From an uncultured delta proteobacterium (lineage in GTDB: Bacteria; Desulfobacterota; Desulfobacteria; Desulfobacterales; B30-G6): a stretch of DNA of 32,000 bases. The DNA lies in contig CAWGLD010000001.1 in the NCBI GenBank assembly GCA_963823335.1, forward strand, positions 556,548 to 588,547, read 5' to 3'. Positions 7,278 through 31,195 of this stretch are shown here, one piece after another. The position numbers and the translations under genes were made by a program. Under the pieces are notes generated by a model that searched no databases, was not told where the DNA came from, and saw nothing but the letters and a program-made list of their open reading frames with translations. Each line of letters begins with the position of its first letter. Positions within the stretch are counted from its first letter, which is position 1.

Positions 7278-7311
7278 TGTTTTAGGTGTTAGGTATTAAG
7301 TTTTAGGTTCA

Positions 7312-10517: not shown

Positions 10518-10609
10518 TCCGACACCTACGTTGCCCGAACAACCATTTAAGCATGTTTGGAGCGGTGTAACCAACGCCGCTCCAAACTTCCTAAAACCCG
10601 TAAACGGGG

Positions 10610-11686: not shown

Positions 11687-11693
11687 AAAATAG

Positions 11694-11783
11694 GGTTCGA
11701 GGGTCCGAGGGTCCGAGTGGCGAAGGGTGGCTGACGGCAGTGAGCGAAAGGCACCTGCAGCCTATCGTCTAAACGCCTAAAAG
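11694..11783 (+). repeat. Dispersed 3'-end-associated repeat family A, copy 3
   Basis: GGGTTCGAGGGTCCGAGGGTCCGAGTGGCGAAGGGTGGCTGACGGCAGTGAGCGAAAGGCACCTGCAGCCTATCGTCTAAACGCCTAAAAG, just after the 40-kDa synthase gene. Confidence 0.75.
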
Positions 11784-11944
11784 AAGTGCTTGGTTCTCAG
11801 CTGAAATTAACACTAAAACCTAAAACCTAAAACGAAAATACTGCACTAACGTCTATACCGCAAAAAAAATCGTTTGGTAAAAATCATATGGGTTTTGTTT
11901 GCATGTTTGTTCAATTCTAACCAATAAAGGAGGACTGTTGCTCT

Positions 11945-13351: not shown

Positions 13352-13385
13352 AAATAAAAACGCTCAATTTAGGAGGAGTTAGGTA

Positions 13386-13901
13386 ATGTCCGATACCGAC
13401 ATGATAGAAGACAAAAAGGTTCTGGTGGTTGATGATGAACAGGACATTCTGGAGGTTTTGGAAGAACTGCTGGATATGTGCCATGTGACAACAGCGTCGA
13501 CCTTTGATCAGGCTAAAACCCTGTTGGAAACCCAGGCCTTTGACATCGCGATTCTCGATATCATGGGGGTTGACGGATATCGCCTGTTGGAAATTGCCAA
13601 CAAGAAAAAGATACCCGCAATTATGCTTACAGCGCATGCATTCTCTGCCGGCAACCTGGTAAAGACCATCAAAGAGGGTGCCTATGCCTATGTTCCCAAA
13701 GAAGAAATCGGCCGGATCGCCGAGTTTCTTTCAGATGCCTTGAACGCCAAAAAACAAGGCAAAAATCCCTGGCGCGTCTGGGAGGAAAGACTGCCGTCAT
13801 CCTATTTTGAAAAAAGATGGGGGGCGGCCTGGAAGAATTCGGACCGGGACTTCTGGAACAAATTCAGGGAAAGCATCAAAACGCGGGATGGGAAAAAATA
13901 A
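13386..13901 (+). CDS. Stand-alone CheY-like receiver protein with ~45-aa basic/aromatic C-terminal tail
   Basis: 171 aa; KKVLVVDDEQDILEVLEELL...FDIAILDIMGVDGYRLLEIA...IPAIMLTAH...GAYAYVPKEE; AGGAGGAG Shine-Dalgarno just upstream. No HTH or output domain recognised. Confidence 0.85.
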   Translation: MSDTDMIEDKKVLVVDDEQDILEVLEELLDMCHVTTASTFDQAKTLLETQAFDIAILDIMGVDGYRLLEIANKKKIPAIMLTAHAFSAGNLVKTIKEGAYAYVPKEEIGRIAEFLSDALNAKKQGKNPWRVWEERLPSSYFEKRWGAAWKNSDRDFWNKFRESIKTRDGKK

Positions 13902-13982
13902 CGCAGTTATCCCCAACCAGGATAAACCGGTTGGAGTGAAGCGAAAACCCTGGCTTGCCGGGGAAAAGATAAGACCTTTTAT

Positions 13983-14062
13983 CACGAAAGCACGAAAGTA
14001 CGAAAACACGAAAATTTTCATGGTCTTTTTCGTGTTTTTCAGATTTCGTGTTTTCGTGATTG
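13983..14062. repeat. CACGAAA-type interspersed inverted repeat
   Basis: CACGAAAGCACGAAAGTACGAAAACACGAAAA...TTTTTCGTGTTTTTCAGATTTCGTGTTTTCGTG: short direct repeats on one side and their reverse complements on the other. Confidence 0.6.
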
Positions 14063-14158
14063 CTTATATTTTTTTGCCACATAATTTACAAATTTTACAG
14101 TGCTCTGTGTCATTTGGACTTTATAGATAAGCATGAAAAAGAAAGAAGGAGGTTTGAA

Positions 14159-15814: not shown

Positions 15815-15818
15815 AACA

Positions 15819-15914
15819 GGGTCCAGGGGTGATACAAGGGTGGTAAGAGGGTTCGAGGGTGGCTGACGGCAGTGAGCGAAAGGCACCTAAAAGCCTACAG
15901 TCTAAAGCCCTAAT
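15819..15914 (+). repeat. Dispersed 3'-end-associated repeat family A, copy 4
   Basis: GGGTCCAGGGGTGATACAAGGGTGGTAAGAGGGTTCGAGGGTGGCTGACGGCAGTGAGCGAAAGGCACCTAAAAGCCTACAGTCTAAAGCCCTAA, just after the CoA ligase stop. Confidence 0.75.
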
Positions 15915-15976
15915 TTTCTGAACTAGGTTCATCGGCTTTTCGCTAGTGTCCGTCCAAAAATAGAGATTTTCGCGTT

Positions 15977-17188
15977 ATGCCAAAGCAGATCCTGATCATA
16001 TCCACCCTGGACACCAAAGGGGTGGAAACACGTTACTTGAAGCAGAAAATCGAGGCGCTGGGTCTTTCCGCCATCCTCATGGATCTGTCCATGCGCGCTG
16101 ACGTTAAACTGCCGGCTGAAATAACCAATGCCCAGGTGGCTGAAGCAGGCGGCAGCAGCATCGAAGAAATCGGGCAATCCCGTGAACGAAGCAAGATCAC
16201 GAAAATCATGACGTCCGGGGCTTCCAAGCTGGCAAGGCAGTATTATGGCGAGGGCAGAATCGACGGTGTAATTGCAATGGGCGGATCCACCGGCACCCTG
16301 ATGGCATCCGATGTGATGCGGTCCCTCCCTTTTGGTGTTCCCAAGACAGTTATATCTTCTACGGCAGCACTTCCCGGTCTTTCCACCAGGTATATCGGAA
16401 CAGGGGATATTACGCTGTTTCATTCGGTAATCGAAATTTCCGGTCTTTCCAATTTGTTAAAAAACGTGATGGACAGGGCAGCACACGCCATCACCGCCAT
16501 GGTTCATGAGACAGTCACACCCCTGGTTACGGGCGAGGGAAAAGCCATCGCCCTGACCATGCTGGGTCCCTGTGAAAAATGTGCCAGCTTTGTCCGTATT
16601 GCCCTTGAAAAAGAAGGCTATCAGGTCATCGGCTTCTCCGCAGCCGGTGTGGGTGATCGGGCCATGGAACAGATGATCGCCGAAGGGTTTTTTCAGGGTG
16701 TCATCGACCTGGCGCCGGGTGGGGTCGGGGAGCATCTTTTCGGTTTTATGAGAGATGCAGGCCCGAATCGACTGGAAAATGCAGGCAGGATGGGAATTCC
16801 AATGATTGTTTCCACCTGCAGCGTCAATCACATGACACCCTCAAAGTCCAGATACCAAGCCGAATACCACCAGCGCCGCAAATATGACCTGGATAAATTT
16901 CGCACCTGGATACGATTGTCGCCGGAAGAGCTGCAGAGCGTTGCGCAAGCCTTTGCCGCGAAATTGAACAAAGCCGGCGGCCCGGTAAAATTCCTGATAC
17001 CGCAGAATGGTTGGTCTTCGGTGGACCAGCCCGGCAATCCGACCCACGATCCACAGGAGGACCGCATCTTCGTTGAGGTGCTGCAACAAAACCTGCGCCC
17101 GGACATCGACATCCTGGAAATACAGGCCAATATGGAAGACCCGGTCTTTGCCCAGGCTGTTGTTGAAACGGCATTGCATCTATTTTAA
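15977..17188 (+). CDS. Tm-1-like ATP-binding domain-containing protein (UPF0261), paralogue 3
   Basis: 403 aa; ILIISTLDTKGVETRYLKQKIEALG, GVIAMGGSTGTLMASDVMRSLPFGVPKTVISSTAA, AAGVGDRAMEQMIAEGFFQGVIDLAPGGVGEHLFG, IPQNGWSSVDQPGNPTHDPQED. Confidence 0.88.
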   Translation: MPKQILIISTLDTKGVETRYLKQKIEALGLSAILMDLSMRADVKLPAEITNAQVAEAGGSSIEEIGQSRERSKITKIMTSGASKLARQYYGEGRIDGVIAMGGSTGTLMASDVMRSLPFGVPKTVISSTAALPGLSTRYIGTGDITLFHSVIEISGLSNLLKNVMDRAAHAITAMVHETVTPLVTGEGKAIALTMLGPCEKCASFVRIALEKEGYQVIGFSAAGVGDRAMEQMIAEGFFQGVIDLAPGGVGEHLFGFMRDAGPNRLENAGRMGIPMIVSTCSVNHMTPSKSRYQAEYHQRRKYDLDKFRTWIRLSPEELQSVAQAFAAKLNKAGGPVKFLIPQNGWSSVDQPGNPTHDPQEDRIFVEVLQQNLRPDIDILEIQANMEDPVFAQAVVETALHLF

Positions 17189-17225
17189 TTGACCATATGC
17201 CTCTTGAAAAAGTAGCTCCTCTGGG

Positions 17226-17245
17226 ATAAAGAATCGATTCTTTAT
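17226..17245. promoter_or_regulatory. Perfect 20-bp palindrome ATAAAGAATCGATTCTTTAT, candidate protein-binding site
   Basis: Exact self-complementarity with no loop, in the gap between Tm-1 paralogue 3 and ubiX. Confidence 0.3.
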
Positions 17246-17361
17246 TCTGCTGGGAAGCGAGGATGCTTGGAGACTGGGATGCTGCTGTCCGTTTTTATCT
17301 CTCAGCCACCCTCGAATCCTTGGCCTCTGGAACCCTTTTTCCTAAAAAAAGCGAGGTACCC

Positions 17362-17967
17362 ATGTCCAAACGAATTGTCATAGGAATATCCGGTGCAAGC
17401 GGTGTGACGTACGGTGTGCGCCTGCTCAGCCTGCTGAAAGACAGTGATTATGAAACGCACCTGATCTTGTCCGAATCCGGCAAACTCAATATCAAGATCG
17501 AGACAGCCTACACACCCGAGGAAGTCCAGGCCATGGCCAGTCATGTGTATGACCACAAAGACATGGCCGCCGCTCTGTCATCCGGTTCTTTCCTGACCCA
17601 GGGCATGGTGGTGGTCCCGTGTACCATAAAGACCTTGTCCGGGATTGCCAACTCATATAACGAGAACCTTCTTGTGCGGGCCGCCGATGTCACATTAAAG
17701 GAAAAACGCAAACTGGTTCTGGTGGTGAGAGAAACGCCCCTGCACCTCGGTCACCTGCGCCTCATGACACTGGCGGCGGAAATGGGAGCCCTTATTGTAC
17801 CGCCGGTGCCCTCCTTTTATCATCAACCCGAAACCCTCCAGGACATCATCGATCAAACCATCGGCAAGGTATTCGATTACCTCGGTATCGAACACGCGCT
17901 TTTTAATCGCTGGGGTGAGAACAAAAGAATGCCCAGGACACCCGATGCCTCATTAAAAGCACTTTAA
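17362..17967 (+). CDS. ubiX: UbiX/Pad1-family flavin prenyltransferase
   Basis: MSKRIVIGISGASGVTYGVRLLSLL...MVVVPCTIKTLSGIANSYNENLLVRAADVTLKEKRKLVLVVRETPLHLGHLRLM; ORF track begins at 17263 but the ATG at 17362 follows a GAGG and gives the family N-terminus. Confidence 0.93.
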   Translation: MSKRIVIGISGASGVTYGVRLLSLLKDSDYETHLILSESGKLNIKIETAYTPEEVQAMASHVYDHKDMAAALSSGSFLTQGMVVVPCTIKTLSGIANSYNENLLVRAADVTLKEKRKLVLVVRETPLHLGHLRLMTLAAEMGALIVPPVPSFYHQPETLQDIIDQTIGKVFDYLGIEHALFNRWGENKRMPRTPDASLKAL

Positions 17968-18010
17968 AGGTGAGAATCTCTTTCCTCGGGGTGAGCTTTG
18001 ATTCTCTGTT

Positions 18011-18712
18011 TTAGGCGCCCTCATCTCCCCCGGGAAACCCGGGGCTTCCGGCAATACCTGTTCGTTTGCGGGAGCGCGGGCCCGCGGCGCCTTCAGATCG
18101 CCAGTCCTGTGGTTTCCGCACCTCATGGATCAAGTGAAGTTTATTCTGTCGCTGAAGCCTTTCATAGATCTGCCCCCATGCACAGGGAACCTCCGGGTTG
18201 ATTTCACAGCTGACGCCGTTGCTTCCCCCGCAAGGGCCGTTCAACAGGCTCTTTGCACATCGGGCGATCGGACAAATACCGCCGGTATAGGTCAGCAGGC
18301 AGTCGCCACATCCCCGGCACATTTCCTGCCATAGGCCCGGTTCAAAAGAGGCACCAAGAAAGGTTGTGTTCAATGCCGGAATCACAGGCAGGGGATCAAA
18401 AGCATCGGCCAGGGTCTGTACACCGGCCCCGCAGGCCAGAGAGATAACGGCATCGGTCCCTTGGGGAAGCTCGTGATAGGATTGGACGAGATCCAGCTCG
18501 CATTGCCTTAATATAACATCGACGGTTATGGGTGACGGCTCGGCCCCGTGGTACACTTTGCGGTTGAGCTCTTGGGCGAGCATCTGCACCTCGCGGTCTC
18601 CGCCGGAAAGACACACGGAAACACAGCTTCCACAACCGACGATGGAAATTTTTTCATAACCGGAAATAGATCGAATGATCTCCTCGATGGGTTTGATATC
18701 ACCGACAATCAT
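18011..18712 (-). CDS. Methylenetetrahydrofolate reductase C-terminal-like (MetV-like, MTHFR_C) iron-sulfur/zinc protein
   Basis: 233 aa; SIVGCGSCVSVCLSGGDREVQMLAQELN, CRGCGDCLLTYTGGICPIARCAKSLLNGPCGGSNGVSCEINPEVPCAWGQIYERL: MTHFR_C signature. Confidence 0.8.
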   Translation of the reverse strand: MIVGDIKPIEEIIRSISGYEKISIVGCGSCVSVCLSGGDREVQMLAQELNRKVYHGAEPSPITVDVILRQCELDLVQSYHELPQGTDAVISLACGAGVQTLADAFDPLPVIPALNTTFLGASFEPGLWQEMCRGCGDCLLTYTGGICPIARCAKSLLNGPCGGSNGVSCEINPEVPCAWGQIYERLQRQNKLHLIHEVRKPQDWRSEGAAGPRSRKRTGIAGSPGFPGGDEGA

Positions 18713-18721
18713 GACATAGCC

Positions 18722-19102
18722 TCATTTTTTTTCCATAAAGTGGGCCTTGACTTTGAGCGTCAGGGCCGGCTTGTGGCGTTCGCAAACAGGCGCTTCAAGT
18801 TTGCCCAGCTTTTCAGCAAGTGTTTCTCCAAAAGCGGCGGTATAAATCGGCTCGCCACACACACGGCAGTGCTCCAGATCGAGGGAGATGACCTCATCCC
18901 AGCGGTTTTGGAGCATATATTGAAATTCGACGGCATCCTGAGGGCACACACGCCAGCAATTCCCGCAGCGGGCGCATTTTGCCATATTGTGGCGAAGTTT
19001 TCTCTTTTTAGCATCATCCTGAACATCGATGGCATTGGCAGGACAATTCTGTAAACAGGCCAGACACCCGTTACATTTGCTGTTGACCTGGAAAAAGTTC
19101 AT
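18722..19102 (-). CDS. 4Fe-4S ferredoxin-type protein
   Basis: 126 aa; CNGCLACLQNCPANAI and CARCGNCWRVCPQDAVEF, plus CRVCGEPI. Confidence 0.88.
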   Translation of the reverse strand: MNFFQVNSKCNGCLACLQNCPANAIDVQDDAKKRKLRHNMAKCARCGNCWRVCPQDAVEFQYMLQNRWDEVISLDLEHCRVCGEPIYTAAFGETLAEKLGKLEAPVCERHKPALTLKVKAHFMEKK

Positions 19103-19103
19103 C

Positions 19104-19694
19104 TCAGTACTTCCTCCTTAAACAGGCGGATTTGCGGATATTGGCCGTTTGAAGCATGTCGGCATCGTCCCATCGCAATGCACCGGGTTCGCAAAAATGA
19201 ACACACTGCGGGTTTCCATTACACACATCGCACTTGAAAATCACCTGTCGGATTTCGTCGAAACCGATGGCCGCATAGGGACAGGCAGCCATACACGCTC
19301 GACAGGATACACATCGGTCATAATCCACCATGACCCTTCCCCAATCGTCATTCCAGACCATGGCCTCTTTGGGGCAGACAGCCATGCAAGGCGCATCCGC
19401 ACACTGCTGACAACAATTCGGTAAAAAGACATCACCCGTGTGCCATGCAATTACACGAATTCGAGATCGGGAAGTATCGATGTCGCCCAGATGGAAAAGA
19501 GAACAGGCAATTTCGCAGAGCCTGCACCCATTGCACTTTTGTGGATGAATTGTAATGACTTTCTGTGAGACGTGCGCTTCTTCCGGCCGTGGGGCCAGCA
19601 CGTTAAAGTCACCGTTTTTCAGTCGCTCCACGATATCTTCCGGGAGGCTGCTTTTTGTCTCCTGGCCAGCTTTGCAGAAACGCGTGTCGATCAT
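19104..19694 (-). CDS. 4Fe-4S ferredoxin, HycB/AorA-like electron transfer subunit
   Basis: 196 aa; CNGCRLCEIACSLFHLG, CCQQCADAPCMAVCPKEAM, CVSCRACMAACPYAAI, CDVCNGNPQCVHFCEPGAL. Start possibly downstream of the annotated M. Confidence 0.88.
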   Translation of the reverse strand: MIDTRFCKAGQETKSSLPEDIVERLKNGDFNVLAPRPEEAHVSQKVITIHPQKCNGCRLCEIACSLFHLGDIDTSRSRIRVIAWHTGDVFLPNCCQQCADAPCMAVCPKEAMVWNDDWGRVMVDYDRCVSCRACMAACPYAAIGFDEIRQVIFKCDVCNGNPQCVHFCEPGALRWDDADMLQTANIRKSACLRRKY

Positions 19695-19724
19695 GTTGGA
19701 TCACCTATTTCGTCACAACTTATT

Positions 19725-19740
19725 GTTCATTATATTGAAC
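19725..19740. promoter_or_regulatory. Inverted repeat GTTCATTATATTGAAC in divergent AOR/ferredoxin region
   Basis: 5-bp perfect arms GTTCA/TGAAC around TTATAT; AT-rich divergent intergenic region. Confidence 0.3.
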
Positions 19741-19841
19741 GCAATATGACAGTACTTTATCGACTAAAATGAATCCTTGTCAACTATAAAATGATAGATT
19801 ACAGCTCTTGTCATACGTATGTTCCGTTTGGCCTATTTGCA

Positions 19842-19857
19842 AAACAAGCGTTTGTTT
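19842..19857. promoter_or_regulatory. Inverted repeat AAACAAGCGTTTGTTT in divergent AOR/ferredoxin region
   Basis: 6-bp perfect arms AAACAA/TTGTTT with a 4-nt spacer. Confidence 0.25.
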
Positions 19858-20026
19858 GAAGTTGTTTGCCGAAGCAGCTTCGGAACGTTGTTCTGACAAA
19901 CTGTCTACAGGGATTATGTGTATTTTGCCCTTGACACCGGGGCCTGTTTTCAACTATAACCACACCATAATAATTCATCCTAATGAACAAACCCTTTTTG
20001 TGAAACAAACAGATGAGGAGCATGCC

Positions 20027-20332
20027 ATGGCCATCGACTCAAAAAATCTATCATCAGCCGAATCGTTACAGAAAGCCCGCACCTTCGGCAAAATCAGATG
20101 CCACAACCCCAGCTGCATGGAAAGGATGGAGCCGTCTCCCGGCGACGATCACGTCAAATGCGCAACCTGTGGCATGGAGTTTCGGCTCTTCTGGGTGCGC
20201 CCGGACCTGCCGCGAATCCGCGGACCGGTCTGGGATGTCAATCGTAAAATTGCGGAGCAGAAGTTGGCCGAGAAATTAAAAAAAGCCAGCCCGGTCTCAA
20301 AGAAAAAAATCAAAAAAGAGGGGGTATCCTAA
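20027..20332 (+). CDS. Small Cys4 (zinc-ribbon/rubredoxin-like) protein upstream of AOR
   Basis: MAIDSKNLSSAESLQKARTFGKIRCHNPSCMERMEPSPGDDHVKCATCGMEFRLFWVRPDLPRIRGPVWDVNRK...; ATG at 20027 preceded by GAGGAG; TAA end abuts the AOR start (20334). Confidence 0.65.
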   Translation: MAIDSKNLSSAESLQKARTFGKIRCHNPSCMERMEPSPGDDHVKCATCGMEFRLFWVRPDLPRIRGPVWDVNRKIAEQKLAEKLKKASPVSKKKIKKEGVS

Positions 20333-20333
20333 G

Positions 20334-22274
20334 ATGGCATTAGATCGAAAAATTGCATACATCGATCTTTCCGAAGGCAAGATTGAATCCAAGCCGATCC
20401 CGATTGAAATTCGAAAAAAATACCTGGGTGGCCGGGGGCTCGATGCATACCTGCTGTACAACCATGCGCCCAAAGGGTGTGATCCTCTGGGTCCTGAAAA
20501 CCCATTATTGATCAGCGGCGGCATTCTTACGGCAACATGCGCCTCAGCCACGGCCCGGACACACATCATGGCCAAATCACCCCTGACCGGTCTTTTGGGA
20601 AGTGCCAACATGGGCGGATTCTTTGCCCCTGAACTGGCATGGGCCGGCTATCATCACCTGGTCATCACAGGTAAGGCAAAAAAGCCTGTATATATCTGGA
20701 TTCACAACGGCACCATCGAAATTCGTGACGCCGCGCATCTGTGGGGCAAAACGACCACGGAAACCCAATGGGCCATCCGTGAGGAACTGAATGACGATGA
20801 AATCAAGAGCGCCGTTATTGGTCAGGCCGGTGAAAACCTGGTGCGCTATGCCAATGTAATGACCGGCGTCAAAAATGCCGCCGGCCGGACAGGCATGGGC
20901 TGCGTCATGGGATCGAAAAACCTGAAGGCCGTGGCCGTACGCGGAACCATGGACATCAAAATCGCCCACCCCATCGAAGCCCTGGACCACAATAAACGCT
21001 TCATCGATCAGATCACCAGCGCCAAGGTAAACAAAACCCAGGGCACATTGGGCACGCCTTTTATATGGGGGGCTACCAACAGCTGGGGTGGTGTGCGCAA
21101 CCGCAATTTTCAATACAACCAGCTTGAAAACGCCGACGACATCGAGCCCGAAAGAATCGACGAGATCGCCACGGAAACCATGGGGCCCTACCACATGGCG
21201 GGATGTTTTGGCTGCCAGGTCCATTGCCGGGCCCAGTACAAGATTCCATCGGGACCCTATGCCGGAAAGTACGATGAGGGTCCGGAATACACATCCCAGG
21301 GAGCCTTCGGGGCTGAACCGGACTGCACAAAAGCGGAAACGGTTCTGACAGGCAATCACCTGGTCGATCAGTACGGTGTGGACAACCTGGAGATCGGCAG
21401 CCTCATCTCCTGGGCCATGGAGCTTTTTGAACTTGGCATCATCACCACCAAAGAAACCGATGGGCTGGACCTTCGATTCGGCAATGACGAGGCCCTGCTG
21501 GAAATGATTCACCGCATCTGCCAGCGCAAGGGCTGGCTGGGAGACGCCCTGGCCGACGGCGGCATACCGGCATCCCAGAAGATCGGTAAAAAATCCTTTG
21601 ATTATCTGATCCAGGTCAAAGGGATGAGCAATCTGCACTCCGACGAACGCGGTACACCTGCCCTGGCCCTCAATATTGCCACGGCTTCCCGCGGCTCCGA
21701 TCATCTGCGCAGCCGACCGGCCATCGATCTCTATCATCTTCCCGAAAAAGTGCTTCGCAAGATATATGGCAGCCCGATTCCCTATGAAGGCCCCCTGAGT
21801 TCGGAGCACACCGAATACATCGGTAAACCCTGGCAGGTTTTCTGGCAGCAGAACTGTTATATGGCCGTCGACTGCCTGGGAATCTGTAAATACCACACGG
21901 TGTTTTTAGGCGCGACCCTGCCCAACTTCGAAGACTGGCCCAAGGTGATCTACTACAACACGGGTCTTGAATTTACACCCCGGGAGTTATGGGAAATTGC
22001 CGAACGCTGTAACAATATCGAGAGGTTGTACAACCTGAGAGAAGGACTTGAACGGGATGATCCTGTCAAAGGCGACACGCTCAATCACCGCTATTTCGAT
22101 GAGCCCTTACGAAGAGGGGCTCCTGACATTGTCGGACTGACAATCGATCGAAAAAAGTTCAAAAAAATGGTGGATGAATTTTATACCCATAACGGTTGGG
22201 ACAAAAAAGGTGTCCCAACACCCGAAACCTTGCGTCGGCTTGGTCTGGACCAGGAACCAGCCCACCTACTATAG
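20334..22274 (+). CDS. Tungsten-dependent aldehyde:ferredoxin oxidoreductase (AOR) family protein
   Basis: 646 aa; IDLSEGKIESKPI..RKKYLGGRGLDAYLLY, THIMAKSPLTGLLGSANMGGFFAPELAWAGYHHLVITGKA, IGQAGENLVRYANVMTGVKNAAGRTGMGCVMGSKNLKAVAVRG, MAGCFGCQVHCR. Confidence 0.93.
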   Translation: MALDRKIAYIDLSEGKIESKPIPIEIRKKYLGGRGLDAYLLYNHAPKGCDPLGPENPLLISGGILTATCASATARTHIMAKSPLTGLLGSANMGGFFAPELAWAGYHHLVITGKAKKPVYIWIHNGTIEIRDAAHLWGKTTTETQWAIREELNDDEIKSAVIGQAGENLVRYANVMTGVKNAAGRTGMGCVMGSKNLKAVAVRGTMDIKIAHPIEALDHNKRFIDQITSAKVNKTQGTLGTPFIWGATNSWGGVRNRNFQYNQLENADDIEPERIDEIATETMGPYHMAGCFGCQVHCRAQYKIPSGPYAGKYDEGPEYTSQGAFGAEPDCTKAETVLTGNHLVDQYGVDNLEIGSLISWAMELFELGIITTKETDGLDLRFGNDEALLEMIHRICQRKGWLGDALADGGIPASQKIGKKSFDYLIQVKGMSNLHSDERGTPALALNIATASRGSDHLRSRPAIDLYHLPEKVLRKIYGSPIPYEGPLSSEHTEYIGKPWQVFWQQNCYMAVDCLGICKYHTVFLGATLPNFEDWPKVIYYNTGLEFTPRELWEIAERCNNIERLYNLREGLERDDPVKGDTLNHRYFDEPLRRGAPDIVGLTIDRKKFKKMVDEFYTHNGWDKKGVPTPETLRRLGLDQEPAHLL

Positions 22275-22299
22275 ATTATGGAATGGAGAGGAAAAGACA

Positions 22300-22797
22300 A
22301 TGGAGAAAGTTCTATCTGTCGATTTTCAGAAGTGTACCGGTTGCCGTTTGTGCGAAATCATATGTTCGGTGATGCATGACGGTGTTTCCAATCCCGCCAG
22401 AAGCAGAATCAGGATCGTGAAATGGGAAGATGAAGGCCAATATATTCCCATGATCTGCCAGCAATGTGAGGATGCGCCCTGTCTGAATGTCTGCCCGGTG
22501 GGGGCCATATCCAGAGATGCGGATTACGGCTTTTTATCTGTCGACTACAATACCTGTATCGGTTGCCGTTCATGTGTGAGCGTCTGCCCTTTCGGGGCCA
22601 TGAACTATACCAGAATCGACAAAAAGATATTCAAATGCGACCTGTGCGGAGGGGATCCGCAGTGCGTGCGATTCTGCGAGATGAAGGCTGTGGATTATAT
22701 TCCATCTGATCGTATGGGTGCCGAAAAGAAAAGAGATGCGGCCACGCGTTTTTATGCCGCTCAAAAAAAGGCCACAGCACTCCAGGAGCCCTTTTAA
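22300..22797 (+). CDS. 4Fe-4S ferredoxin, HycB/AorA-like electron transfer subunit
   Basis: MEKVLSVDFQKCTGCRLCEIICSVMHDG, CQQCEDAPCLNVCPVGAI, CIGCRSCVSVCPFGAM, CDLCGGDPQCVRFCEMKAV; ATG at 22300 preceded by GGAGAGG. Confidence 0.9.
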   Translation: MEKVLSVDFQKCTGCRLCEIICSVMHDGVSNPARSRIRIVKWEDEGQYIPMICQQCEDAPCLNVCPVGAISRDADYGFLSVDYNTCIGCRSCVSVCPFGAMNYTRIDKKIFKCDLCGGDPQCVRFCEMKAVDYIPSDRMGAEKKRDAATRFYAAQKKATALQEPF

Positions 22798-26048: not shown

Positions 26049-26866
26049 CATGTGGGGCAGATGTGACTGCTGCGCTGGCCCACCAGGATGCGTTGAATGG
26101 CGGAACCACAGCGCGGGCACGCCTGCCCGCCCCGGCGGAATACCTTGAGTTGATCGGCATTGCGGCCCTGGCGACCGGCCACCGAGTAGAAATTTCCCGC
26201 GCCACCACCCAGGGTCGTACCCATGTTTCGCAGCCCGGTACGCAGCACATACGGTATGGCCCGGTGCAGGTCAGTGATTTCTTTTTTCGAAAGTGAACAG
26301 CTGATACGCAAGGGGTGAATTATAGCCTTCCAGAGCGCTTCGTCCACGTAGATGTTGCCCAGACCGGCAATAAATCGCTGGTCCAGCAGCAGGGGCTTGA
26401 TCTGGCGTCTGCAGGCCTCGAGCATCTTGCCAAAACGGGCCGCAGTGAAGTCATCCGCCAGAGGTTCGGGCCCCAGTTTTCCCAGGACCGTCCCGGGGTC
26501 TTTGGTGAGGAGAATGCGGCCGAACTTGCGTGTATCCTGAAAGCGCAGCTCCCTCTTTTCCCCCAGATCCAGGATCACATGTTCGTGTCTGTTACGTTCC
26601 TTGCCCTTGAGCTCCCAGTTCAGATGCCCGGTCATACGCAGATGGATCAGCAGGGTCAGGCCCTGGGACAGCTCCATGACAATATATTTACCCCGACGCG
26701 TGATCTGCTGGATCGTGTGCCCCTCGATGCTTTTACAGAAGACAGCGGGCGTCATTTCGGCAATGGTCCTGGGCCAGTACACCCTGGCACCGGCAATACA
26801 ACACCCGGCGATCTTGAGCCCGTTCAGGTTGTCCACCACCGTCTGTACTTCAGGCAACTCGGGCAT
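26030..26866 (-). CDS. mutM: Formamidopyrimidine-DNA glycosylase
   Basis: 278 aa; N-terminal MPELPEVQTVVDNL, LLIHLRMTGHL, RFGRILL, LLDQRFIAGLGNIYVDEALWKAIIHP, C-terminal zinc finger CPRCGSAIQRILVGQRSSHICPTCQ. Confidence 0.96.
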   Translation of the reverse strand: MPELPEVQTVVDNLNGLKIAGCCIAGARVYWPRTIAEMTPAVFCKSIEGHTIQQITRRGKYIVMELSQGLTLLIHLRMTGHLNWELKGKERNRHEHVILDLGEKRELRFQDTRKFGRILLTKDPGTVLGKLGPEPLADDFTAARFGKMLEACRRQIKPLLLDQRFIAGLGNIYVDEALWKAIIHPLRISCSLSKKEITDLHRAIPYVLRTGLRNMGTTLGGGAGNFYSVAGRQGRNADQLKVFRRGGQACPRCGSAIQRILVGQRSSHICPTCQIEPL

Positions 26867-26878
26867 GATGACGTTCCT

Positions 26879-27721
26879 TTACCTGCCCAACCGTTGCAGC
26901 TCCACCTCCACGGCAGCTGAAAAACTCTCCAGGCTGCGTTGCCGCTGCAGACGCCCGTTGATGTATACCGCGGGCGTACCCCTGACATCGGCTTCTCTGG
27001 CCCATTGCACGTCCTTTAAAATCTGATCCGTCACCTGGGCTGCCTTGCGCTGGGTGTCGAAAGCGCTCTTGTCCAGATCGAGACTGACGCGGATCTCTTC
27101 CACCTTGGCCTCATTCAGGCTGTTGTAACTGGCAAAAAGAGCATCGTGAAATTCCCAGAAACGACCCTGGGCATGGGCCGCCAGGGCGGCAGCGGCGGCT
27201 TGACGCGCAAATTTGTGACTGCGCAAAGGAAAATTTTTGAAGACGAGCTTGACCTGTTGGGGATATTTCTCGAGCAACTGCTCGAGTACCGGCGCGAGCC
27301 GGGCGCAGTAAGGTCATTGAAAATCGGTAAAAACCACCACCGCCACGGCTGCGTCCAGAGCTCCCTTGGTGGGGGAACCGTCAACGGGAATATCCACGAT
27401 GAACGTCAGGATGAGCTCCTGGATACGATTGCCGGCGGAGTTGACCAGATAGAGACGATCCTCTGCCGGACCCGCTTGAATGCCGTCCACTCCGGGATCC
27501 ACCGTCAGGGTGTCGTACAGTTCGCCGGTGCTCTTGAAAATCTGCAGTTTGGCATCTGCCGTGAGCACATAGATATAGCGCCCGTTACCCGGAACGACCA
27601 GGTCAACAGGTGTTGCCTTGAGCTGGAAGGTACGTACCACCTGGGCCTCCACTTCGGCCTGAGCCGGGGAAACCACTGCCAGTAATAAAATTAGCGATAT
27701 CAGCCAATGGTGTGCTTTCAT
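26879..27721 (-). CDS. Probable selenoprotein: secreted DsbA-like thioredoxin-fold protein with in-frame TGA (Sec136), active site FQ-U-PYC
   Basis: The ORF track splits this into 27314..27721 and 26879..27277, but both are in the same frame, separated only by TGA at 27314-27316. Joined product: signal peptide MKAHHWLISLILLLAVVSPAQAE..., VAVVVFTDFQ[TGA]PYCARLAPVLEQLLEKYPQQVKLVFKNFPLRSHKFARQAAAAALAAHAQGRFWEFHDALF...ADVRGTPAVYINGRL. TGA falls at the first Cys of F-x-D-F-Q-C-P-Y-C. Confidence 0.85.
27269..27302 (-). promoter_or_regulatory. Candidate bacterial SECIS region: two consecutive hairpins 3' of the Sec TGA
   Basis: mRNA sense: CCGGC-UCGC-GCCGG (27302..27289) then CUCGAGC-AGUU-GCUCGAG (27286..27269), 7-bp perfect stem, 4-nt loop with G in second position, loop starting 34 nt after the UGA. 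Confidence 0.6.
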
Positions 27722-28053
27722 AAAAACATCCTTGATCCATTACAGGTAACGCGGGTTGCTTCACCCCACAGGTTCGGCTCATCCAGGAACGCATTGTTCC
27801 CATGTAGACATAACGCAATCGACATCAACGTCTATCATATTGTCGAAGCAAATAAAAGCCCTACCCACCTGCCGATTGACAACAACACCCACAGCAGGTA
27901 TTCTCACAACAAACACCACGCAAAGAGAAGGACGAAGGGCTTAGGAATGAGGACTGAGTTGCTGGAAAGCGACTGTCAGCCATCAGCTGTTAGCCGACTT
28001 AAAACCTAACACCTAAAACTTAAAACCGTCTTAAACTTAAAACCAGAATTAAT

Positions 28054-28785
28054 ATGGATTCAGTTAAAAATATCACCCTCTTCGTCCAGTGCCTGGTGGA
28101 TGGTCTCTATCCAGAGGTGGGAGAGGCCATGCTGACGATCTTCAAGCGTCTCGGCATCCAGGTGGACTGCCCCATGGACCAGACCTGCTGCGGCCAGCCC
28201 GCCTTCAACGCCGGTCATCGAAAGGCCGCCAGGGTAGCCGCCAGGAGGTTCATTGAAATTTTCGAACACGCGGAGTGGATTGTCTGCCCTTCGGGATCCT
28301 GCGTCAACATGGTAAAAAACCATTATCCGGACCTTTTCGAAGATGATGCTGTGTGGGCCGAGCGGGCAAAGCAGGTGGGACAGCGAACCTATGAACTGAG
28401 TCAGTTTCTGGTGGACATTCTGAGCGTCGAGGACCTGGGTGCCGCCCATCACGGCAAAATAACCTACCATGACTCCTGCCACCTGCTCAGAGGTCTGGGT
28501 GTCGGGGAACAGCCACGGCGTCTGATACGGCATGTAAAACAGGCTGAATTTGTCGAGATGAAAGATTCGGACCGCTGTTGCGGGTTCGGGGGAACCTTTT
28601 CGGTCAAATACCCGGACATCTCAACGGCCATGGTGGACGACAAGATCCGCAACATTCTCGCAACCGGGGCCGATACCGTTACCGGTTGCGACATCAGCTG
28701 TCTCATGAACATCCAGGGCAGACTCAGCCGCATAGGGTCATCTATCAAGGTGTTGCATATTGCGCAATTGTTGGCAGATAAATAG
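28054..28785 (+). CDS. LutA-like (Fe-S)-binding protein with cysteine-rich CCG domains
   Basis: 243 aa; LFVQCLVDGLYPEVG, DQTCCGQPAFNAGH, CPSGSCVNMVKNHY, YHDSCHLLRGLG, DRCCGFGGTFSVKYPDIS, DISCLMNIQG. Confidence 0.88.
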   Translation: MDSVKNITLFVQCLVDGLYPEVGEAMLTIFKRLGIQVDCPMDQTCCGQPAFNAGHRKAARVAARRFIEIFEHAEWIVCPSGSCVNMVKNHYPDLFEDDAVWAERAKQVGQRTYELSQFLVDILSVEDLGAAHHGKITYHDSCHLLRGLGVGEQPRRLIRHVKQAEFVEMKDSDRCCGFGGTFSVKYPDISTAMVDDKIRNILATGADTVTGCDISCLMNIQGRLSRIGSSIKVLHIAQLLADK

Positions 28786-28892
28786 CTGTTATAGAGGCCA
28801 AGGATCGAGAAAAGAAATTGTCATTTGCTTCGCGATATTTATGGTCATTTACTTCGTGTCATTTATTGTAGCTATCAGCTATGAGCAACAAT

Positions 28893-28982
28893 AAATGACG
28901 CCCGCAGGGCAAATGTCGCGCGCAGCGCAAATGACATCCGAAGGATTAATGACGCCCGCAGGGCAAACGGCGTCCGAAGGAA
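28893..28982 (+). repeat. Tandem array of five 18-nt mini-hairpin units (array 2)
   Basis: Units: AAATGAC-GCCC-GCA-GGGC / AAATGTC-GCGC-GCA-GCGC / AAATGAC-ATCC-GAA-GGAT / TAATGAC-GCCC-GCA-GGGC / AAACGGC-GTCC-GAA-GGAA; an opposite-orientation partner TGTCATTTGCTTCGCG lies at 28819..28834. Confidence 0.85.
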
Positions 28983-28985
28983 ATA

Positions 28986-30398
28986 ATGAAACCATCGAGC
29001 TACACGCGTCTGTCCCAATCGGCCATAAAAGATCCTGTGCTCCACACCGCCCTGGCAAACCTCCAGGAACGGTTCGGCAAGGGCGCGGCCCTGGGGTACC
29101 GGAAATTTCCGGAGGGACCGGGGCTGCGTCTCAAGGCCCATGATATCCGCATGAATGCCATCGAAAATCTCGACATCCTGCTGGAAACCCTCGCCCGAAA
29201 CATCCGCGGAAACGGAGGCCATGTTCATTTTGCCCGGGATGCCCAGACGGCTGTGGACTGCTGTCTCGACATCGCCCGTAAGCATGACGTGAGCATGGCG
29301 GTCAAGGGCAAATCCATGCTCAGTGAAGAAATCGGGCTCAACAAGGCCCTTCAAGAGGCCGGTATCGAAGCCGTGGAGACCGATCTGGGGGAATACATCA
29401 TCCAGCTGGCCGGCGAAACACCGTCCCACATCATCGCACCCGCCGTTCACAAAACCCGGCAGCAGGTGGGCCGTCTCTTTCAGAAAAAGCTGGGTATCCC
29501 CTATTCCGAGGATCCGCCCACCCTGACCCTGGCTGCCAGAAAAGCCCTGCGGGAAAAATTTTTGAAAGCCGAAATGGGCATCTCGGGCTGCAACCTGGCC
29601 TGTGCTGAAACCGGTCACATCACCACCGTGTCCAACGAGGGCAATATCCGCATGTCCACCACCCTGCCCCGGGTGCACGTGGCCTTCATGGGCATGGAAC
29701 GGGTTGTGGCCGATCTCAAGGACCACGAAATTTTTTTCCGTCTGCTTTCCATGGGCGGTGCCGCCCAGAACATGGCTGGCTATGTCAGCTACCGCGGCGG
29801 CCTGGGAGACAAAGGCCTCCTGGGCGGACCGGGTGAGTTTCATCTGATCGTCATCGACAACGGTCGCAGCCGGATCCTCGCCGATCCCGACTTCAAGGAG
29901 ATGCTCTGCTGCATCCGTTGCGGGGGCTGTCTCAACATCTGCCCGGTATACGGGGAAATCGGCGGACATGCTTACAATTCCCCTTATTCCGGACCGGTGG
30001 GGGCTGTTGTCACGCCCCTGTTACAAGGGATCAACCGCCATGCCGACCTCTGCCAGGGAGAGTCTCTGTGCGGGGCCTGCATGGATGCCTGCCCCGTCAA
30101 CATCGACATCCCCCGCATGCTGCTTCGGCTGCGCCAGAAACTGGCCGAGGGAGACCCCTCCTGGAATGTCACGATCAAGAGTCGCCTGGATCAGGCCGTT
30201 TTTGCCGCCTGGTCACTCCTGATCCGCAATCCGCGTCTTTACGATTTGTTTCTAAAATCCGCTGTTGTGGGTCAGAAATTTCTGCCCGGAAAAGAACAGA
30301 TGATCTCCAGGCTCCCTTTTTCCGGCAAAGGCTGGACCGACAGCCGGGATCTCAAGAAATTCGCCCAAAAGCGCTTTTTGGATCGTGGAAGATCATGA
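28986..30398 (+). CDS. LutB-like LUD-domain iron-sulfur protein
   Basis: 470 aa; KSMLSEEIGLNKALQEAGIEAVETDLGEYIIQLAGETPSHIIAPAVH, CCIRCGGCLNICPVYGEIGGHAY, CQGESLCGACMDACPVNIDIP. Confidence 0.93.
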   Translation: MKPSSYTRLSQSAIKDPVLHTALANLQERFGKGAALGYRKFPEGPGLRLKAHDIRMNAIENLDILLETLARNIRGNGGHVHFARDAQTAVDCCLDIARKHDVSMAVKGKSMLSEEIGLNKALQEAGIEAVETDLGEYIIQLAGETPSHIIAPAVHKTRQQVGRLFQKKLGIPYSEDPPTLTLAARKALREKFLKAEMGISGCNLACAETGHITTVSNEGNIRMSTTLPRVHVAFMGMERVVADLKDHEIFFRLLSMGGAAQNMAGYVSYRGGLGDKGLLGGPGEFHLIVIDNGRSRILADPDFKEMLCCIRCGGCLNICPVYGEIGGHAYNSPYSGPVGAVVTPLLQGINRHADLCQGESLCGACMDACPVNIDIPRMLLRLRQKLAEGDPSWNVTIKSRLDQAVFAAWSLLIRNPRLYDLFLKSAVVGQKFLPGKEQMISRLPFSGKGWTDSRDLKKFAQKRFLDRGRS

Positions 30399-31195
30399 AA
30401 CCAATCAAACCAGTAAATGGCCAATCCCCGATCCCCGTCGATCAAACCCGATTCATCGCTAACATCAAAAAAGCCCTGGGACGGTCCGATTTCGAGCATC
30501 GCCGAATGGAAGACCTCATTCAAACCAGCCCCGATAGCAACGATCTTGCCTTGATGCAAACCATCCAGAGCCGTGACCGAAAAATGCGACTCACCCTCCT
30601 GGACAGGATGATGGAGGTTGCCAAAACCATCAACACGAAAGTCGCGGCGGCAGAAACCAAAACCCAGATCGCGGCGGCCATTGCTAAAATCGCCATTGAT
30701 TCAAATGCGGAATGGGGCGACGGAAAATCCATCGTGGCCTGGGATCATCCCCTGGTGAATGGCCTGGATCTGCCCGCAGCCATGCAACCCCTGGGTGTTC
30801 CGGTCTATTTTCCGGAAAACGACGCCTGCAGTGCCGGAGCAAAGACTTTCCGCAAACAGTCCGAGACCGCCTTGATGGGCATAACCTCGGCTGATTTCGG
30901 TCTGGCGGAAACCGCTACCCTGACCATGAAAACCCGCCCCGGACAACCCCTGCACGTCTCCCTTCTACCCTCCATCCACATCGCCGTGATCCGGCTGGAA
31001 CAAATCCTGTCCAATCTCAAGGAGTTTTACGCCCTGCTCAAATGGGACCCCGCACAACAGGCTGAGGGTCTCACCCACAGCATGTCCTTTATCACCGGCC
31101 CCAGCAAAACCGCCGATATCGAAGCCACCCTGGTCCACGGCGCCCATGGCCCCAGGGAGCTGGTTATCTTCGTTTTGAAAAATGAAACGAGCTGA
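30395..31195 (+). CDS. LutC-like LUD-domain protein
   Basis: ATG at 30395 overlaps the lutB-like stop (ATGA); VYFPENDACSAGAKTFRKQSETALMGITSADFGLAETATLTMKTRPGQPLHVSLLPSIHIAVIRLEQIL...FITGPSKTADIEATLVHGAHGPRELVIFVL. ORF track extends 5' to 29918, out of frame with lutB. Confidence 0.9.
   Translation: MKPIKPVNGQSPIPVDQTRFIANIKKALGRSDFEHRRMEDLIQTSPDSNDLALMQTIQSRDRKMRLTLLDRMMEVAKTINTKVAAAETKTQIAAAIAKIAIDSNAEWGDGKSIVAWDHPLVNGLDLPAAMQPLGVPVYFPENDACSAGAKTFRKQSETALMGITSADFGLAETATLTMKTRPGQPLHVSLLPSIHIAVIRLEQILSNLKEFYALLKWDPAQQAEGLTHSMSFITGPSKTADIEATLVHGAHGPRELVIFVLKNETS

What the first reader, a model, noticed from the sequence alone, without database searches (positions are those of the whole stretch)
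26879..27721. Unannotated selenoprotein: secreted DsbA-like oxidoreductase with U-P-Y-C active site
Seen directly: two same-frame ORFs on the minus strand are separated by one TGA (27314-27316), giving ...AVAVVVFTDFQ-TGA-PYCARLAPVLEQLLEKYPQQVKLVFKNFPLRSHKFARQ.... Known: thioredoxin-fold DsbA-like proteins carry FxDFxCPYC here, and DsbA-like Sec-for-Cys proteins have been reported in Sec-decoding bacteria. The TGA sits exactly at the first (nucleophilic) Cys, the resolving Cys is kept, and the cis-Pro loop RGTPAVYING and a signal peptide are intact. Inference: Sec136 in a 280-aa periplasmic protein. The ~110-residue N-terminal extension (FQLKATPVDLVVPGNGRYIYVLTADAKLQIFKSTGELYDTLTVDPGVDGIQAGPAEDRLYLVNSAGNRIQELIL) looks like beta-propeller blades fused to the selenothioredoxin domain, an arrangement I do not recognise. 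Standard annotation would call this a pseudogene or two truncated ORFs.
Basis: partly seen in the sequence, partly recalled or inferred. Interest (0 to 1): 0.85.

Follow-up and report, generated by a model that had tools for sequence, protein, structure and literature searches.

The report
Selenocysteine ScsC/DsbA-like periplasmic oxidoreductase gene
The apparent stop codon splitting this gene is almost certainly read as selenocysteine, giving a secreted 280-residue disulfide-exchange enzyme of a selenoprotein class known since 2005, though gene callers routinely cut this subfamily in two and its small two-blade propeller domain seems undescribed.

Summary
One minus-strand reading frame (27721..26879) has a single in-frame TGA at 27316-27314, in the context FTDFQ-TGA-PYC.

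The selenoprotein reading is strongly supported:
- Of 42 full-length orthologous loci in other genomes, 15 carry TGA at exactly this codon and 27 carry TGC/TGT.
- Sequence after the TGA is under purifying selection.
- A hairpin 34 nt downstream meets all four criteria of the published bacterial SECIS model. It shows compensatory changes and is largely lost in the Cys forms.
- TGA is still an ordinary stop for 11 of 30 other window genes.

The catalytic domain is closest to ScsC, which has a CPYC motif and a GTP cis-Pro loop. The N-terminal extension is two beta-propeller blades.

The family is large, and its Sec forms are systematically truncated in public gene calls. Of the 150 best matches to the N-domain, 93 are ORFs that end exactly before the Sec codon.

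Sec-containing DsbA-like and DsbG-like UxxC proteins have been known since 2005, so this is a new member of a known kind, not a new kind. The undescribed part is the two-blade domain, which may assemble a propeller in trans. That would make an oligomeric isomerase, but this is inference only.

No sel genes or tRNA-Sec could be checked, because the rest of the genome was out of reach.

The parts
26879..27721 (-). Whole selenoprotein gene: 280 codons plus TAA, with Sec at codon 136
   Evidence: Full-length Cys homologues of 280-295 aa at 65-72% identity. Identical gene in L081.
27729..27733 (-). Shine-Dalgarno AAGGA, 7 nt before the ATG
   Evidence: Read directly from the sequence.
27656..27721 (-). 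Sec-type signal peptide (residues 1-22, cleavage after AQA). There is no lipobox Cys.
   Evidence: Read directly from the sequence. Residues 1-16 have low pLDDT in the model of the homologue.
27377..27655 (-). N-terminal domain (residues 23-115): two beta-propeller blades, seven strands
   Evidence: AF2 model with pLDDT 88.5. All top Foldseek PDB hits are propellers, including 6r5x, which is built from 2-blade fragments. The family profile hits WD40/YVTN propellers. Related repeat proteins carry NHL/YncE/lactonase propeller Pfams. The domain has no Pfam model of its own.
26906..27376 (-). DsbA/ScsC-like thioredoxin-fold catalytic domain (residues 116-272)
   Evidence: Pfam Thioredoxin_4 at 4.7e-24 and DSBA at 2.1e-18. 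Closest structures are 3gyk, ScsC, alpha-DsbA2 and BdbD.
27314..27316 (-). In-frame TGA, read as Sec136, the nucleophilic position of the U-P-Y-C motif
   Evidence: TGA at the same column in 15 of 42 orthologous loci, with TGC/TGT in the rest.
27305..27307 (-). Codon of the resolving Cys139
   Evidence: Invariant column in the family alignment.
27289..27302 (-). Hairpin H1 (CCGGC-UCGC-GCCGG), 11 nt after the UGA. It is an accessory stem conserved in Sec forms.
   Evidence: -8.2 kcal/mol. Four of its 5 pairs show compensatory changes.
27269..27286 (-). Hairpin H2 (CUCGAGC-AGUU-GCUCGAG), the SECIS core. It has a 7-bp stem, a 4-nt loop with G at position 2, and 34 nt between the UGA and the loop.
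   Evidence: -10.7 kcal/mol. It meets the bSECIS criteria quoted in PMC13188914.
26972..26977 (-). Thr249-Pro250 of the cis-Pro loop (RGTPAVY)
   Evidence: Invariant T249 and P250. Aligns with QGTPA of P. mirabilis ScsC.

Best explanation
This is one gene for a secreted 280-residue selenoprotein.

Decoding (inferred from sequence evidence). The ribosome reaches UGA136. The hairpin that starts 27 nt downstream has the loop A-G-U-U. It would recruit SelB carrying Sec-tRNA(Sec), so selenocysteine is inserted instead of termination.

Product. The mature periplasmic protein has two parts:
- a two-blade beta-propeller fragment (residues 23-115);
- a DsbA-fold catalytic domain of the ScsC/DsbG type, whose CPYC motif is U-P-Y-C.

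Chemistry (from established thioredoxin-fold chemistry, not tested here). Sec136 is the attacking nucleophile and forms a selenenylsulfide with Cys139. It exchanges with substrate disulfides faster than a Cys would.

Likely role (inferred). Three features point to a disulfide reductase or isomerase of the ScsC kind rather than a DsbA-type primary oxidase:
- the CPYC-type dipeptide;
- the Thr-cisPro loop;
- the closest solved relatives, which are oligomeric ScsC, alpha-DsbA2 and BcfH.

The two-blade domain probably drives homo-oligomerisation by completing a propeller in trans. That would replace the coiled-coil stalk of ScsC.

What is shown: the UGA/Cys correspondence, the SECIS-like structure, the two folds and the family distribution. 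What is inferred: Sec insertion itself, the redox role and the oligomeric state.
For: UGA/Cys correspondence. Of 42 orthologous loci, 15 have TGA and 27 have TGC/TGT at the same column. Close Cys homologues at 65-72% identity are continuous 280-aa proteins with FTDFQCPYC.

Coding constraint after the TGA. Against L001 and L002, 40/65 and 55/88 differences fall at third codon positions. There are no indels, and amino-acid identity is 82-86%.

SECIS.
- Hairpin H2 has a 7-bp stem, loop AG[G/U]U, 34-nt spacing and -10.7 kcal/mol. This satisfies the four bSECIS criteria quoted.
- In 15 Sec forms, 89.9% of cells pair, against 33-44% when the partners are slid. Seven pairs show compensatory change, and 0 of 500 shuffles reach the observed values.
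- Mean folding energy of the 60 nt after the codon is -18.7 kcal/mol in Sec forms and -10.2 in Cys forms, p = 1e-6.

TGA is not reassigned: 11 of 30 other window genes end in TGA.

Domains.
- Pfam Thioredoxin_4 and DSBA.
- PmScsC aligns as FTDYNCPYCKRFDPLLEKITEQYP ... QGTPA.
- Foldseek top hits are 3gyk, ScsC, alpha-DsbA2, BdbD and BcfH.
- The N-domain is propeller blades.

Oligomerisation idea.
- Solved precedents exist for propellers built from 2- or 3-blade fragments (6r5x, 6r5z, 2m3x).
- Homologue P0142 carries three tandem copies of the 2-blade unit before one CPWC domain.
- Removing the oligomerisation domain of PmScsC abolishes isomerase activity and turns it into an oxidase (PMC5524982; PMC11634996).

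Lineage. Deltaproteobacteria are the most selenoprotein-rich group and include DsbA-like selenoproteins.
Against: - No selA, selB, selD or tRNA-Sec lies in the window, in about 15 kb of extra flanks, or in any locus fetched. The rest of the genome could not be read.
- No Rfam SECIS family matches, even at E <= 10.
- No redox partner (ScsB/DsbD, DsbB or VKOR) is adjacent, and the gene neighbourhood is not conserved.
- The oligomeric state is untested. The monomer model already has pTM 0.83, so the N-domain may simply pack on the catalytic domain.
- Three-blade variants also exist, so no single stoichiometry follows.
- Some Cys forms (L018, L024) keep the H2 hairpin. Part of its conservation therefore reflects the LEQVLE peptide.
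Confidence: 0.85

Rival explanations
1. The gene is a pseudogene or an assembly error. A TGC/TGT-to-TGA nonsense change or a base-call error inactivated an ordinary CPYC DsbA-like gene.
For: TGY to TGA is a single-base change. The related ENA long-read contig carries many indel errors (37 gap openings in 9.4 kb).
Against: The same TGA occurs in two assemblies of this organism and in 15 other genomes. The downstream frame stays intact with third-position-biased substitutions. A hairpin with covariation is specific to the TGA forms. Ninety-three cluster representatives end exactly at this codon.
Confidence: 0.02
2. The TGA is a true stop. The cell makes a 135-residue secreted two-blade protein, and the downstream thioredoxin-like piece is separate or untranslated.
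For: Gene callers annotate it this way. UGA-C is a leaky context, but termination always competes with Sec insertion, so some truncated product is expected.
Against: The downstream piece would lack a signal peptide, a ribosome-binding site and its nucleophile, yet it is more conserved than the N-domain. Cys homologues are single continuous proteins. The first strand of the thioredoxin fold (residues 126-132) lies before the TGA.
Confidence: 0.03
3. The UGA is recoded through the SECIS but inserts Cys or another residue rather than Sec. One route would be a SelB-dependent tRNA-Cys of the kind reported in some Sec-decoding lineages (from my own knowledge; not checked in the literature here).
For: Sequence alone cannot tell which amino acid is delivered. 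Cys works at this position in 27 of 42 orthologues.
Against: Such systems are rare. Interspersed Sec and Cys forms on the tree are the usual Sec/Cys pattern of genuine selenoproteins. The lineage is selenoprotein-rich.
Confidence: 0.04
4. It is a real selenoprotein, but it acts as a monomeric DsbA-type dithiol oxidase reoxidised by VKOR or DsbB. On this view the two-blade domain is a substrate- or partner-binding module, not an oligomerisation device.
For: The fold is DsbA. The monomer model is confident for both domains together (pTM 0.83). ScsC proteins show both oxidase and reductase activity in vivo. No DsbD/ScsB-like gene is nearby.
Against: The motif is CPYC-type and the loop is Thr-cisPro, as in ScsC. 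The NCBIfam DsbA equivalogs score far below their cut-offs (23.9 against 279). Two blades cannot close a propeller alone, and a homologue supplies six blades in cis.
Confidence: 0.3

Closest known systems
DsbA-like selenoprotein, form 1 (PF01323, UxxC; Zhang et al. 2005/2006; review PMC13188914)
   Same: The DSBA Pfam domain scores above its threshold, and a UxxC motif has Sec at the nucleophilic position. There are Cys homologues and a bSECIS immediately after the UGA. The family occurs in Deltaproteobacteria.
   Different: The literature defines this family only by Pfam domain and motif. I found no mention of an N-terminal two-blade propeller domain. I could not check whether this exact subfamily was among the genes counted.
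DsbG-like selenoprotein, the Rcas_1661 family thioredoxin-like (seleno)lipoprotein (NCBIfam NF041057)
   Same: It is the best NCBIfam hit (9.3e-21), covering the catalytic domain. It is also a secreted UxxC thioredoxin-fold selenoprotein.
   Different: The score is 74.5 against a cut-off of 190. Only profile positions 78-245 match. The window protein has a plain signal peptide, not a lipoprotein signal, and a different N-terminal region.
ScsC (suppressor of copper sensitivity C) of Proteus mirabilis and Caulobacter crescentus; also Wolbachia alpha-DsbA2 and Salmonella BcfH
   Same: They share the DsbA-fold catalytic domain. The active site is CPYC (UPYC here), in the very similar context FTD(Y/F)xCPYC...P(L/V)LE...YP. 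They share the GTP cis-Pro loop. Each has an extra N-terminal domain ahead of the catalytic domain.
   Different: Those proteins use Cys, not Sec. Their N-terminal domain is a helical trimerisation stalk, whereas this one is beta-propeller blades. No scsABD genes are nearby. Sequence identity is only about 25-29%.
Oligomeric beta-propellers built from few-blade fragments (PDB 6r5x, 6r5z; Ph1500, 2m3x)
   Same: The N-domain model superposes on 2- and 3-blade fragments that form closed 8-, 9- or 12-blade rings by oligomerisation.
   Different: The matches are weak (E about 2e-3 to 8e-3). 6r5x and 6r5z are propellers formed from 2- and 3-blade fragments, and Ph1500 is a homohexamer. No assembly was tested for this protein.

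Membership tests
Bacterial selenoprotein gene (UGA decoded as Sec) | In-frame UGA aligned with Cys in homologues (Sec/Cys pair), with UGA-containing homologues in other organisms | tested here: met
   Of 42 orthologous loci, 15 have TGA and 27 have TGC/TGT at the same column. Ninety-three cluster representatives are truncated exactly there.
Bacterial selenoprotein gene (UGA decoded as Sec) | Reading frame conserved and under coding constraint downstream of the UGA | tested here: met
   Same length, 82-86% amino-acid identity, and 40/65 and 55/88 differences at third codon positions.
Bacterial selenoprotein gene (UGA decoded as Sec) | bSECIS consensus: 3-9 nt apical loop, 4-16 bp stem, G in the first two loop positions, 16-37 nt from UGA to loop, MFE <= -7.5 kcal/mol (criteria quoted in PMC13188914) | tested here: met
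   H2 has loop AGUU, a 7-bp stem, 34-nt spacing and -10.7 kcal/mol. Covariation is shown.
Bacterial selenoprotein gene (UGA decoded as Sec) | Match to a curated Rfam bacterial SECIS family | tested here: not met
   No Rfam match at E <= 10 in 26800-27800. [quoted passage not shown]
Bacterial selenoprotein gene (UGA decoded as Sec) | selA, selB, selC (tRNA-Sec) and selD present in the same genome | not testable with these tools
   None in the window, in the extra flanks L081 and L083, or in any DNA held.
Bacterial selenoprotein gene (UGA decoded as Sec) | Selenium physically present in the protein | not testable with these tools
   Needs 75Se labelling or mass spectrometry.
DsbA-like selenoprotein form 1 (PF01323, UxxC) | PF01323 domain above the gathering score, and a UxxC motif | tested here: met
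   DSBA scores 67.2 bits against a cut-off of 25.6. The motif is U-P-Y-C.
DsbG-like / Rcas_1661 (seleno)lipoprotein, NF041057 | Score at or above the curated cut-off of 190 bits | tested here: not met
   74.5 bits, covering profile positions 78-245 only.
DsbG-like / Rcas_1661 (seleno)lipoprotein, NF041057 | Lipoprotein signal with a lipobox Cys | tested here: not met
   The signal peptide ends ...VSPAQA|EVE and has no Cys.
ScsC-type disulfide isomerase | DsbA-fold catalytic domain with a CPYC active site and a Thr-cisPro loop | tested here: met
   Alignment to PmScsC (4xvw, 6nen) at E 4e-15 to 6e-15, with CPYC against UPYC and GTPA against GTPA. Foldseek gives 1.5e-11.
ScsC-type disulfide isomerase | N-terminal helical (coiled-coil) trimerisation stalk | tested here: not met
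   The N-domain is all-beta, with seven strands.
ScsC-type disulfide isomerase | scs operon context with the ScsB partner | tested here: not met
   The neighbours are mutM and lutABC. No conserved redox partner appears in 42 loci.
E. coli-type DsbA oxidase | Match to the DsbA equivalog models | tested here: not met
   NF008198 scores 23.9 against 279, and NF047695 scores 28.1 against 290.
Beta-propeller (WD40/YVTN/NHL type), for the N-domain | Four-stranded antiparallel blades related to propeller repeats | tested here: met
   Seven strands, which is about two blades. Every top Foldseek hit is a propeller. The family profile hits 2ymu, WRAP-T and 1l0q. Repeat-protein relatives carry NHL, YncE and lactonase Pfams.
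Beta-propeller (WD40/YVTN/NHL type), for the N-domain | Closed ring of at least 4 blades | tested here: not met
   There are only two blades per chain. Closure would need oligomerisation, which these tools cannot test because no multimer prediction is offered.

The most novel reading that the evidence does not exclude
The two-blade N-domain assembles a closed beta-propeller in trans, for example three chains giving six blades. Homologue P0142 has six blades in one chain. The ring would display several Sec active sites, which would be a new way of oligomerising a Dsb-type isomerase. Sec would be the ancestral and commonest state of this Desulfobacterota family, and current annotation hides most of its members.
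Probability: 0.3. Interest if true: 0.6.

Novelty: new member of a known kind. Interest (0 to 1): 0.38.

Why it matters
- Annotation. This subfamily is large: more than 800 homologues. Its Sec forms are almost always split or truncated in public gene calls, so periplasmic redox capacity and selenoproteome size in Desulfobacterota are undercounted. A dedicated family model would fix hundreds of entries.
- Biochemistry. The family supplies natural Sec and Cys versions of one ScsC-like enzyme at 70% identity. That is a clean system for asking what Sec buys in disulfide exchange.
- Structure. If the two-blade domain closes a propeller in trans, it is a natural example of propeller assembly from fragments, joined to a catalytic domain.

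Tried and rejected
The tool also rejects a translation containing a stop. I therefore modelled the 72%-identical Cys homologue P0002 and, separately, the window's own N-domain.
- Rfam gave no SECIS match.
- Pfam gave nothing significant for the N-domain alone.
- The search for Sec machinery was negative everywhere I could look: no tRNA in the window, no sel-like ORF among the window genes, nothing in 10-kb extensions at both ends of the source contig, and no tblastn hit in any held DNA with E. coli SelD and SelB recalled from memory.
- Neighbourhood analysis found no conserved redox partner. In Desulfobulbales the gene lies between tig-clpP and phoH-ybeY.
- The SelO-like gene just outside the window is an ordinary Cys form, so it says nothing about Sec decoding.
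I rejected this because no close query sequence was available.
- A look-up of the full-length protein written with U was not accepted.

Full report
**Observation**

On the minus strand, a single frame runs from ATG 27721-27719 to TAA 26881-26879. It has 280 sense codons and one internal TGA at 27316-27314 (codon 136), in the context FTDFQ-TGA-PYCARLAPVLEQLLEKYP. An AAGGA ribosome-binding site lies 7 nt upstream. Residues 1-22 are a typical signal peptide ending AQA|E. mutM starts 12 nt after the stop. A second assembly of the same organism (L081, an 828-kb ENA contig, 99.7% identical) has the identical gene with the same TGA. There the gene is called as two ORFs of 135 and 132 aa. Exactly these two fragments are also on record from an NCBI contig of 2.0 Mb. 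The observation, and the prediction that annotation would split the gene, are both confirmed.

**Is the TGA a Sec codon?**

Homologues. A protein search found more than 800 homologues. The best are 280-295-aa proteins at 65-72% identity with FTDFQCPYC.

Sec/Cys pairing. In 42 full-length orthologous loci from the species-level genome collection, the codon at this column is TGA in 15 and TGC/TGT in 27. The 15 are L001, L002, L004, L005, L008, L013, L015-L017, L019, L020, L027, L030, L032 and L036. The motifs are UPYC, UVYC and UPAC.

Coding constraint. Downstream of the TGA the frame is intact. Against L001 and L002 (about 78-80% nucleotide identity), 40 of 65 and 55 of 88 differences are at third codon positions. 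There are no indels, and amino-acid identity is 82-86%, which is higher than in the N-terminal part.

No reassignment. TGA terminates 11 of 30 other genes in the window, so the codon is not reassigned genome-wide.

SECIS. Two hairpins follow the TGA:
- H1 is CCGGC-UCGC-GCCGG at -8.2 kcal/mol.
- H2 is CUCGAGC-AGUU-GCUCGAG at -10.7 kcal/mol.

H2 has a 4-nt loop with G in second position followed by G or U, a 7-bp stem, and 34 nt between the UGA and the loop. This meets all four constraints of the published bSECIS model as quoted in the 2026 review.

Across 15 Sec forms, 89.9% of cells pair, against 33-44% when the 3' partners are slid. Seven of 12 pairs show compensatory change, and no shuffle in 500 reaches the observed values. 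The 60 nt after the codon fold to a mean of -18.7 kcal/mol in 16 Sec forms and -10.2 in 27 Cys forms (p = 1e-6). L036 has the same AGUU-loop hairpin 12 nt closer to the UGA.

Negatives. [quoted passage not shown] No tRNA-Sec or sel genes lie in the window, in about 15 kb of extra flank, or in any held DNA.

Support from lineage. The TGA, the hairpin and the coding constraint all persist across species about 20% divergent in DNA. That is hard to explain unless the lineage decodes it. The literature also describes Deltaproteobacteria as the most selenoprotein-rich group.

**What the protein is**

Catalytic domain. Residues 116-272 match Pfam Thioredoxin_4 (4.7e-24) and DSBA (2.1e-18). An AlphaFold model of the 72%-identical Cys homologue P0002 is confident (pLDDT 92, pTM 0.83). 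Its nearest solved structures are:
- 3gyk;
- ScsC of Proteus mirabilis and Caulobacter crescentus;
- Wolbachia alpha-DsbA2;
- BdbD;
- BcfH;
- C. diphtheriae DsbA/TsdA.

The alignment to PmScsC shows FTDYNCPYCKRFDPLLEKITEQYP against FTDFQ(U)PYCARLAPVLEQLLEKYP, and QGTPA against RGTPA. The active site is therefore the Sec version of the ScsC CPYC site, with a Thr-cisPro loop. The E. coli-type DsbA equivalog models score far below their cut-offs.

N-terminal domain. Residues 23-115 have no Pfam family of their own. Three results identify them as propeller blades:
- The family profile hits WD40 and YVTN propellers (2ymu, the WRAP-T designs, 1l0q) over positions 29-120.
- A model of the window's own N-domain (pLDDT 88.5) has seven strands, about two blades.
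- Every top Foldseek hit is a beta-propeller. These include 6r5x (an 8-bladed propeller formed by four 2-bladed fragments), 6r5z and the hexameric Ph1500.

**Distribution**

Searching 1.84 billion cluster representatives with the N-domain gave 262 hits. The best 150 break down as follows:
- 93 are ORFs of about 137 aa that end exactly at ...[DE][FY][QE]. These are Sec forms cut off at the TGA by gene callers.
- 17 to 19 are full-length Cys forms.
- 27 are long repeat proteins with NHL, YncE or lactonase propeller domains.

This ratio overstates Sec forms, because short and divergent fragments split into more clusters. In genomes the share is 15 of 42. On a neighbour-joining tree, Sec and Cys forms are interspersed, which implies several switches. 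Two Cys forms (L018, L024) still carry the H2 hairpin.

Variants with three blades exist (P0270 as a Cys form; P0146, P0203 and P0249 as truncated Sec forms). One homologue, P0142 (502 aa), has three tandem copies of the two-blade unit ahead of a CPWC domain.

**Mechanism**

Shown by the sequence evidence: a UGA at the nucleophilic position, a SECIS-type hairpin, a secreted ScsC-like DsbA fold, and a two-blade propeller fragment.

Inferred:
1. SelB with Sec-tRNA(Sec) reads UGA136.
2. Sec136 attacks substrate disulfides and forms a selenenylsulfide with Cys139.
3. The enzyme works as a disulfide reductase or isomerase, not a primary oxidase. The reasons are its CPYC-type motif, its Thr-cisPro loop and its closest relatives.
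4. The two-blade domain oligomerises to close a propeller.

For PmScsC, removing the N-terminal oligomerisation domain abolishes isomerase activity and yields an oxidase (PMC5524982). Oligomerisation is also proposed to block access of DsbB (PMC11634996). The six-blade homologue P0142 and the solved fragment-built propellers make trans-assembly plausible. It is untested, however, and the three-blade variants mean no fixed stoichiometry follows. No redox partner is encoded nearby, and the neighbourhood is not conserved.

**Comparison with what is known**

DsbA-like and DsbG-like UxxC selenoproteins were described in 2005 from the Sargasso Sea. They were then found in Desulfovibrio, Anaeromyxobacter, Desulfotomaculum and the Olavius delta-1 symbiont, and counted as 45 genes in 41 organisms in 2016. 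The 2026 review lists them as 'DsbA-like form 1, PF01323, UxxC' and 'DsbG-like, NF041057'.

The window protein meets the definition of the first of these. It fails the NF041057 cut-off (74.5 against 190 bits) and is not a lipoprotein. It resembles ScsC in its catalytic domain but lacks the helical stalk and the scs gene context. Two literature searches found no description of a DsbA-like protein with a two-blade propeller domain.

**Verdict**

It belongs to a selenoprotein class that is already established, so its novelty is modest. It is a new member (a distinct, model-less subfamily) of a known kind, with an apparently undescribed N-terminal architecture. Interest is moderate at 0.38.

Noticed in passing
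window 8661-22797: The gene set looks like an anaerobic aromatic (phenol-type) degradation cluster. It holds a PEP-utilising enzyme pair resembling phenylphosphate synthase (8661-10517, 10610-11686), a UbiD-family decarboxylase (11945-13351), UbiX (17263-17967), an AMP-forming ligase (14060-15814), a tungsten-type aldehyde:ferredoxin oxidoreductase (20334-22274) and several 4Fe-4S proteins.
   Followed up: no
window 1239-2447, 3796-5007, 15977-17188: There are three paralogues of the UPF0261 (Tm-1-like) family within 16 kb. One lies next to an ARMT1-like gene (2488-3366).
   Followed up: no
window 28054-31195; loci L002, L015-L017, L019, L020, L032: lutABC lies divergent from the Sec gene. A CCG-domain Fe-S protein is also the upstream neighbour in 7 other Sec-form loci and in none of the 27 Cys-form loci. 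These are different proteins (LutA against a 400-aa GlpC-like protein), so the pattern may be coincidence.
   Followed up: partly
L018 3367-3426, L024 3367-3426: These Cys-form orthologues (Desulfocapsaceae) still carry an intact H2-type hairpin, GAGCAGGUGCUC. It may be a fossil SECIS left after a Sec-to-Cys change, or a by-product of the LEQVLE peptide.
   Followed up: partly
L036 3343-3402: This Sec form has its AGUU-loop hairpin 12 nt closer to the UGA and has no H1 hairpin. The SECIS position therefore varies within the family.
   Followed up: no
P0142 (502 aa); P0270, P0146, P0203, P0249: Some family members have more blades. P0142 has three tandem two-blade units (six blades) before a CPWC domain. 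The others have three blades, and three of them are Sec forms truncated at the TGA.
   Followed up: partly
L083 10999-20462 against window 1192-10602: The ENA long-read contig differs from the window by 37 gap openings in 9.4 kb and splits several genes that are intact in the window. That assembly therefore carries indel errors, although the Sec gene region is identical.
   Followed up: partly
L081 3497-4993 (about 4 kb beyond window end): A SelO-family gene ends ...TFCGT-TGA. It is the ordinary Cys form, not a selenoprotein. An MttB-family methyltransferase gene lies next to it.
   Followed up: yes
L014, L018, L023-L026, L028, L029, L031, L033, L035, L037-L041: In Desulfobulbales the orthologue sits in a housekeeping stretch, downstream of tig-clpP and directly followed by phoH and a ybeY-pdxJ-like gene.
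   Followed up: no
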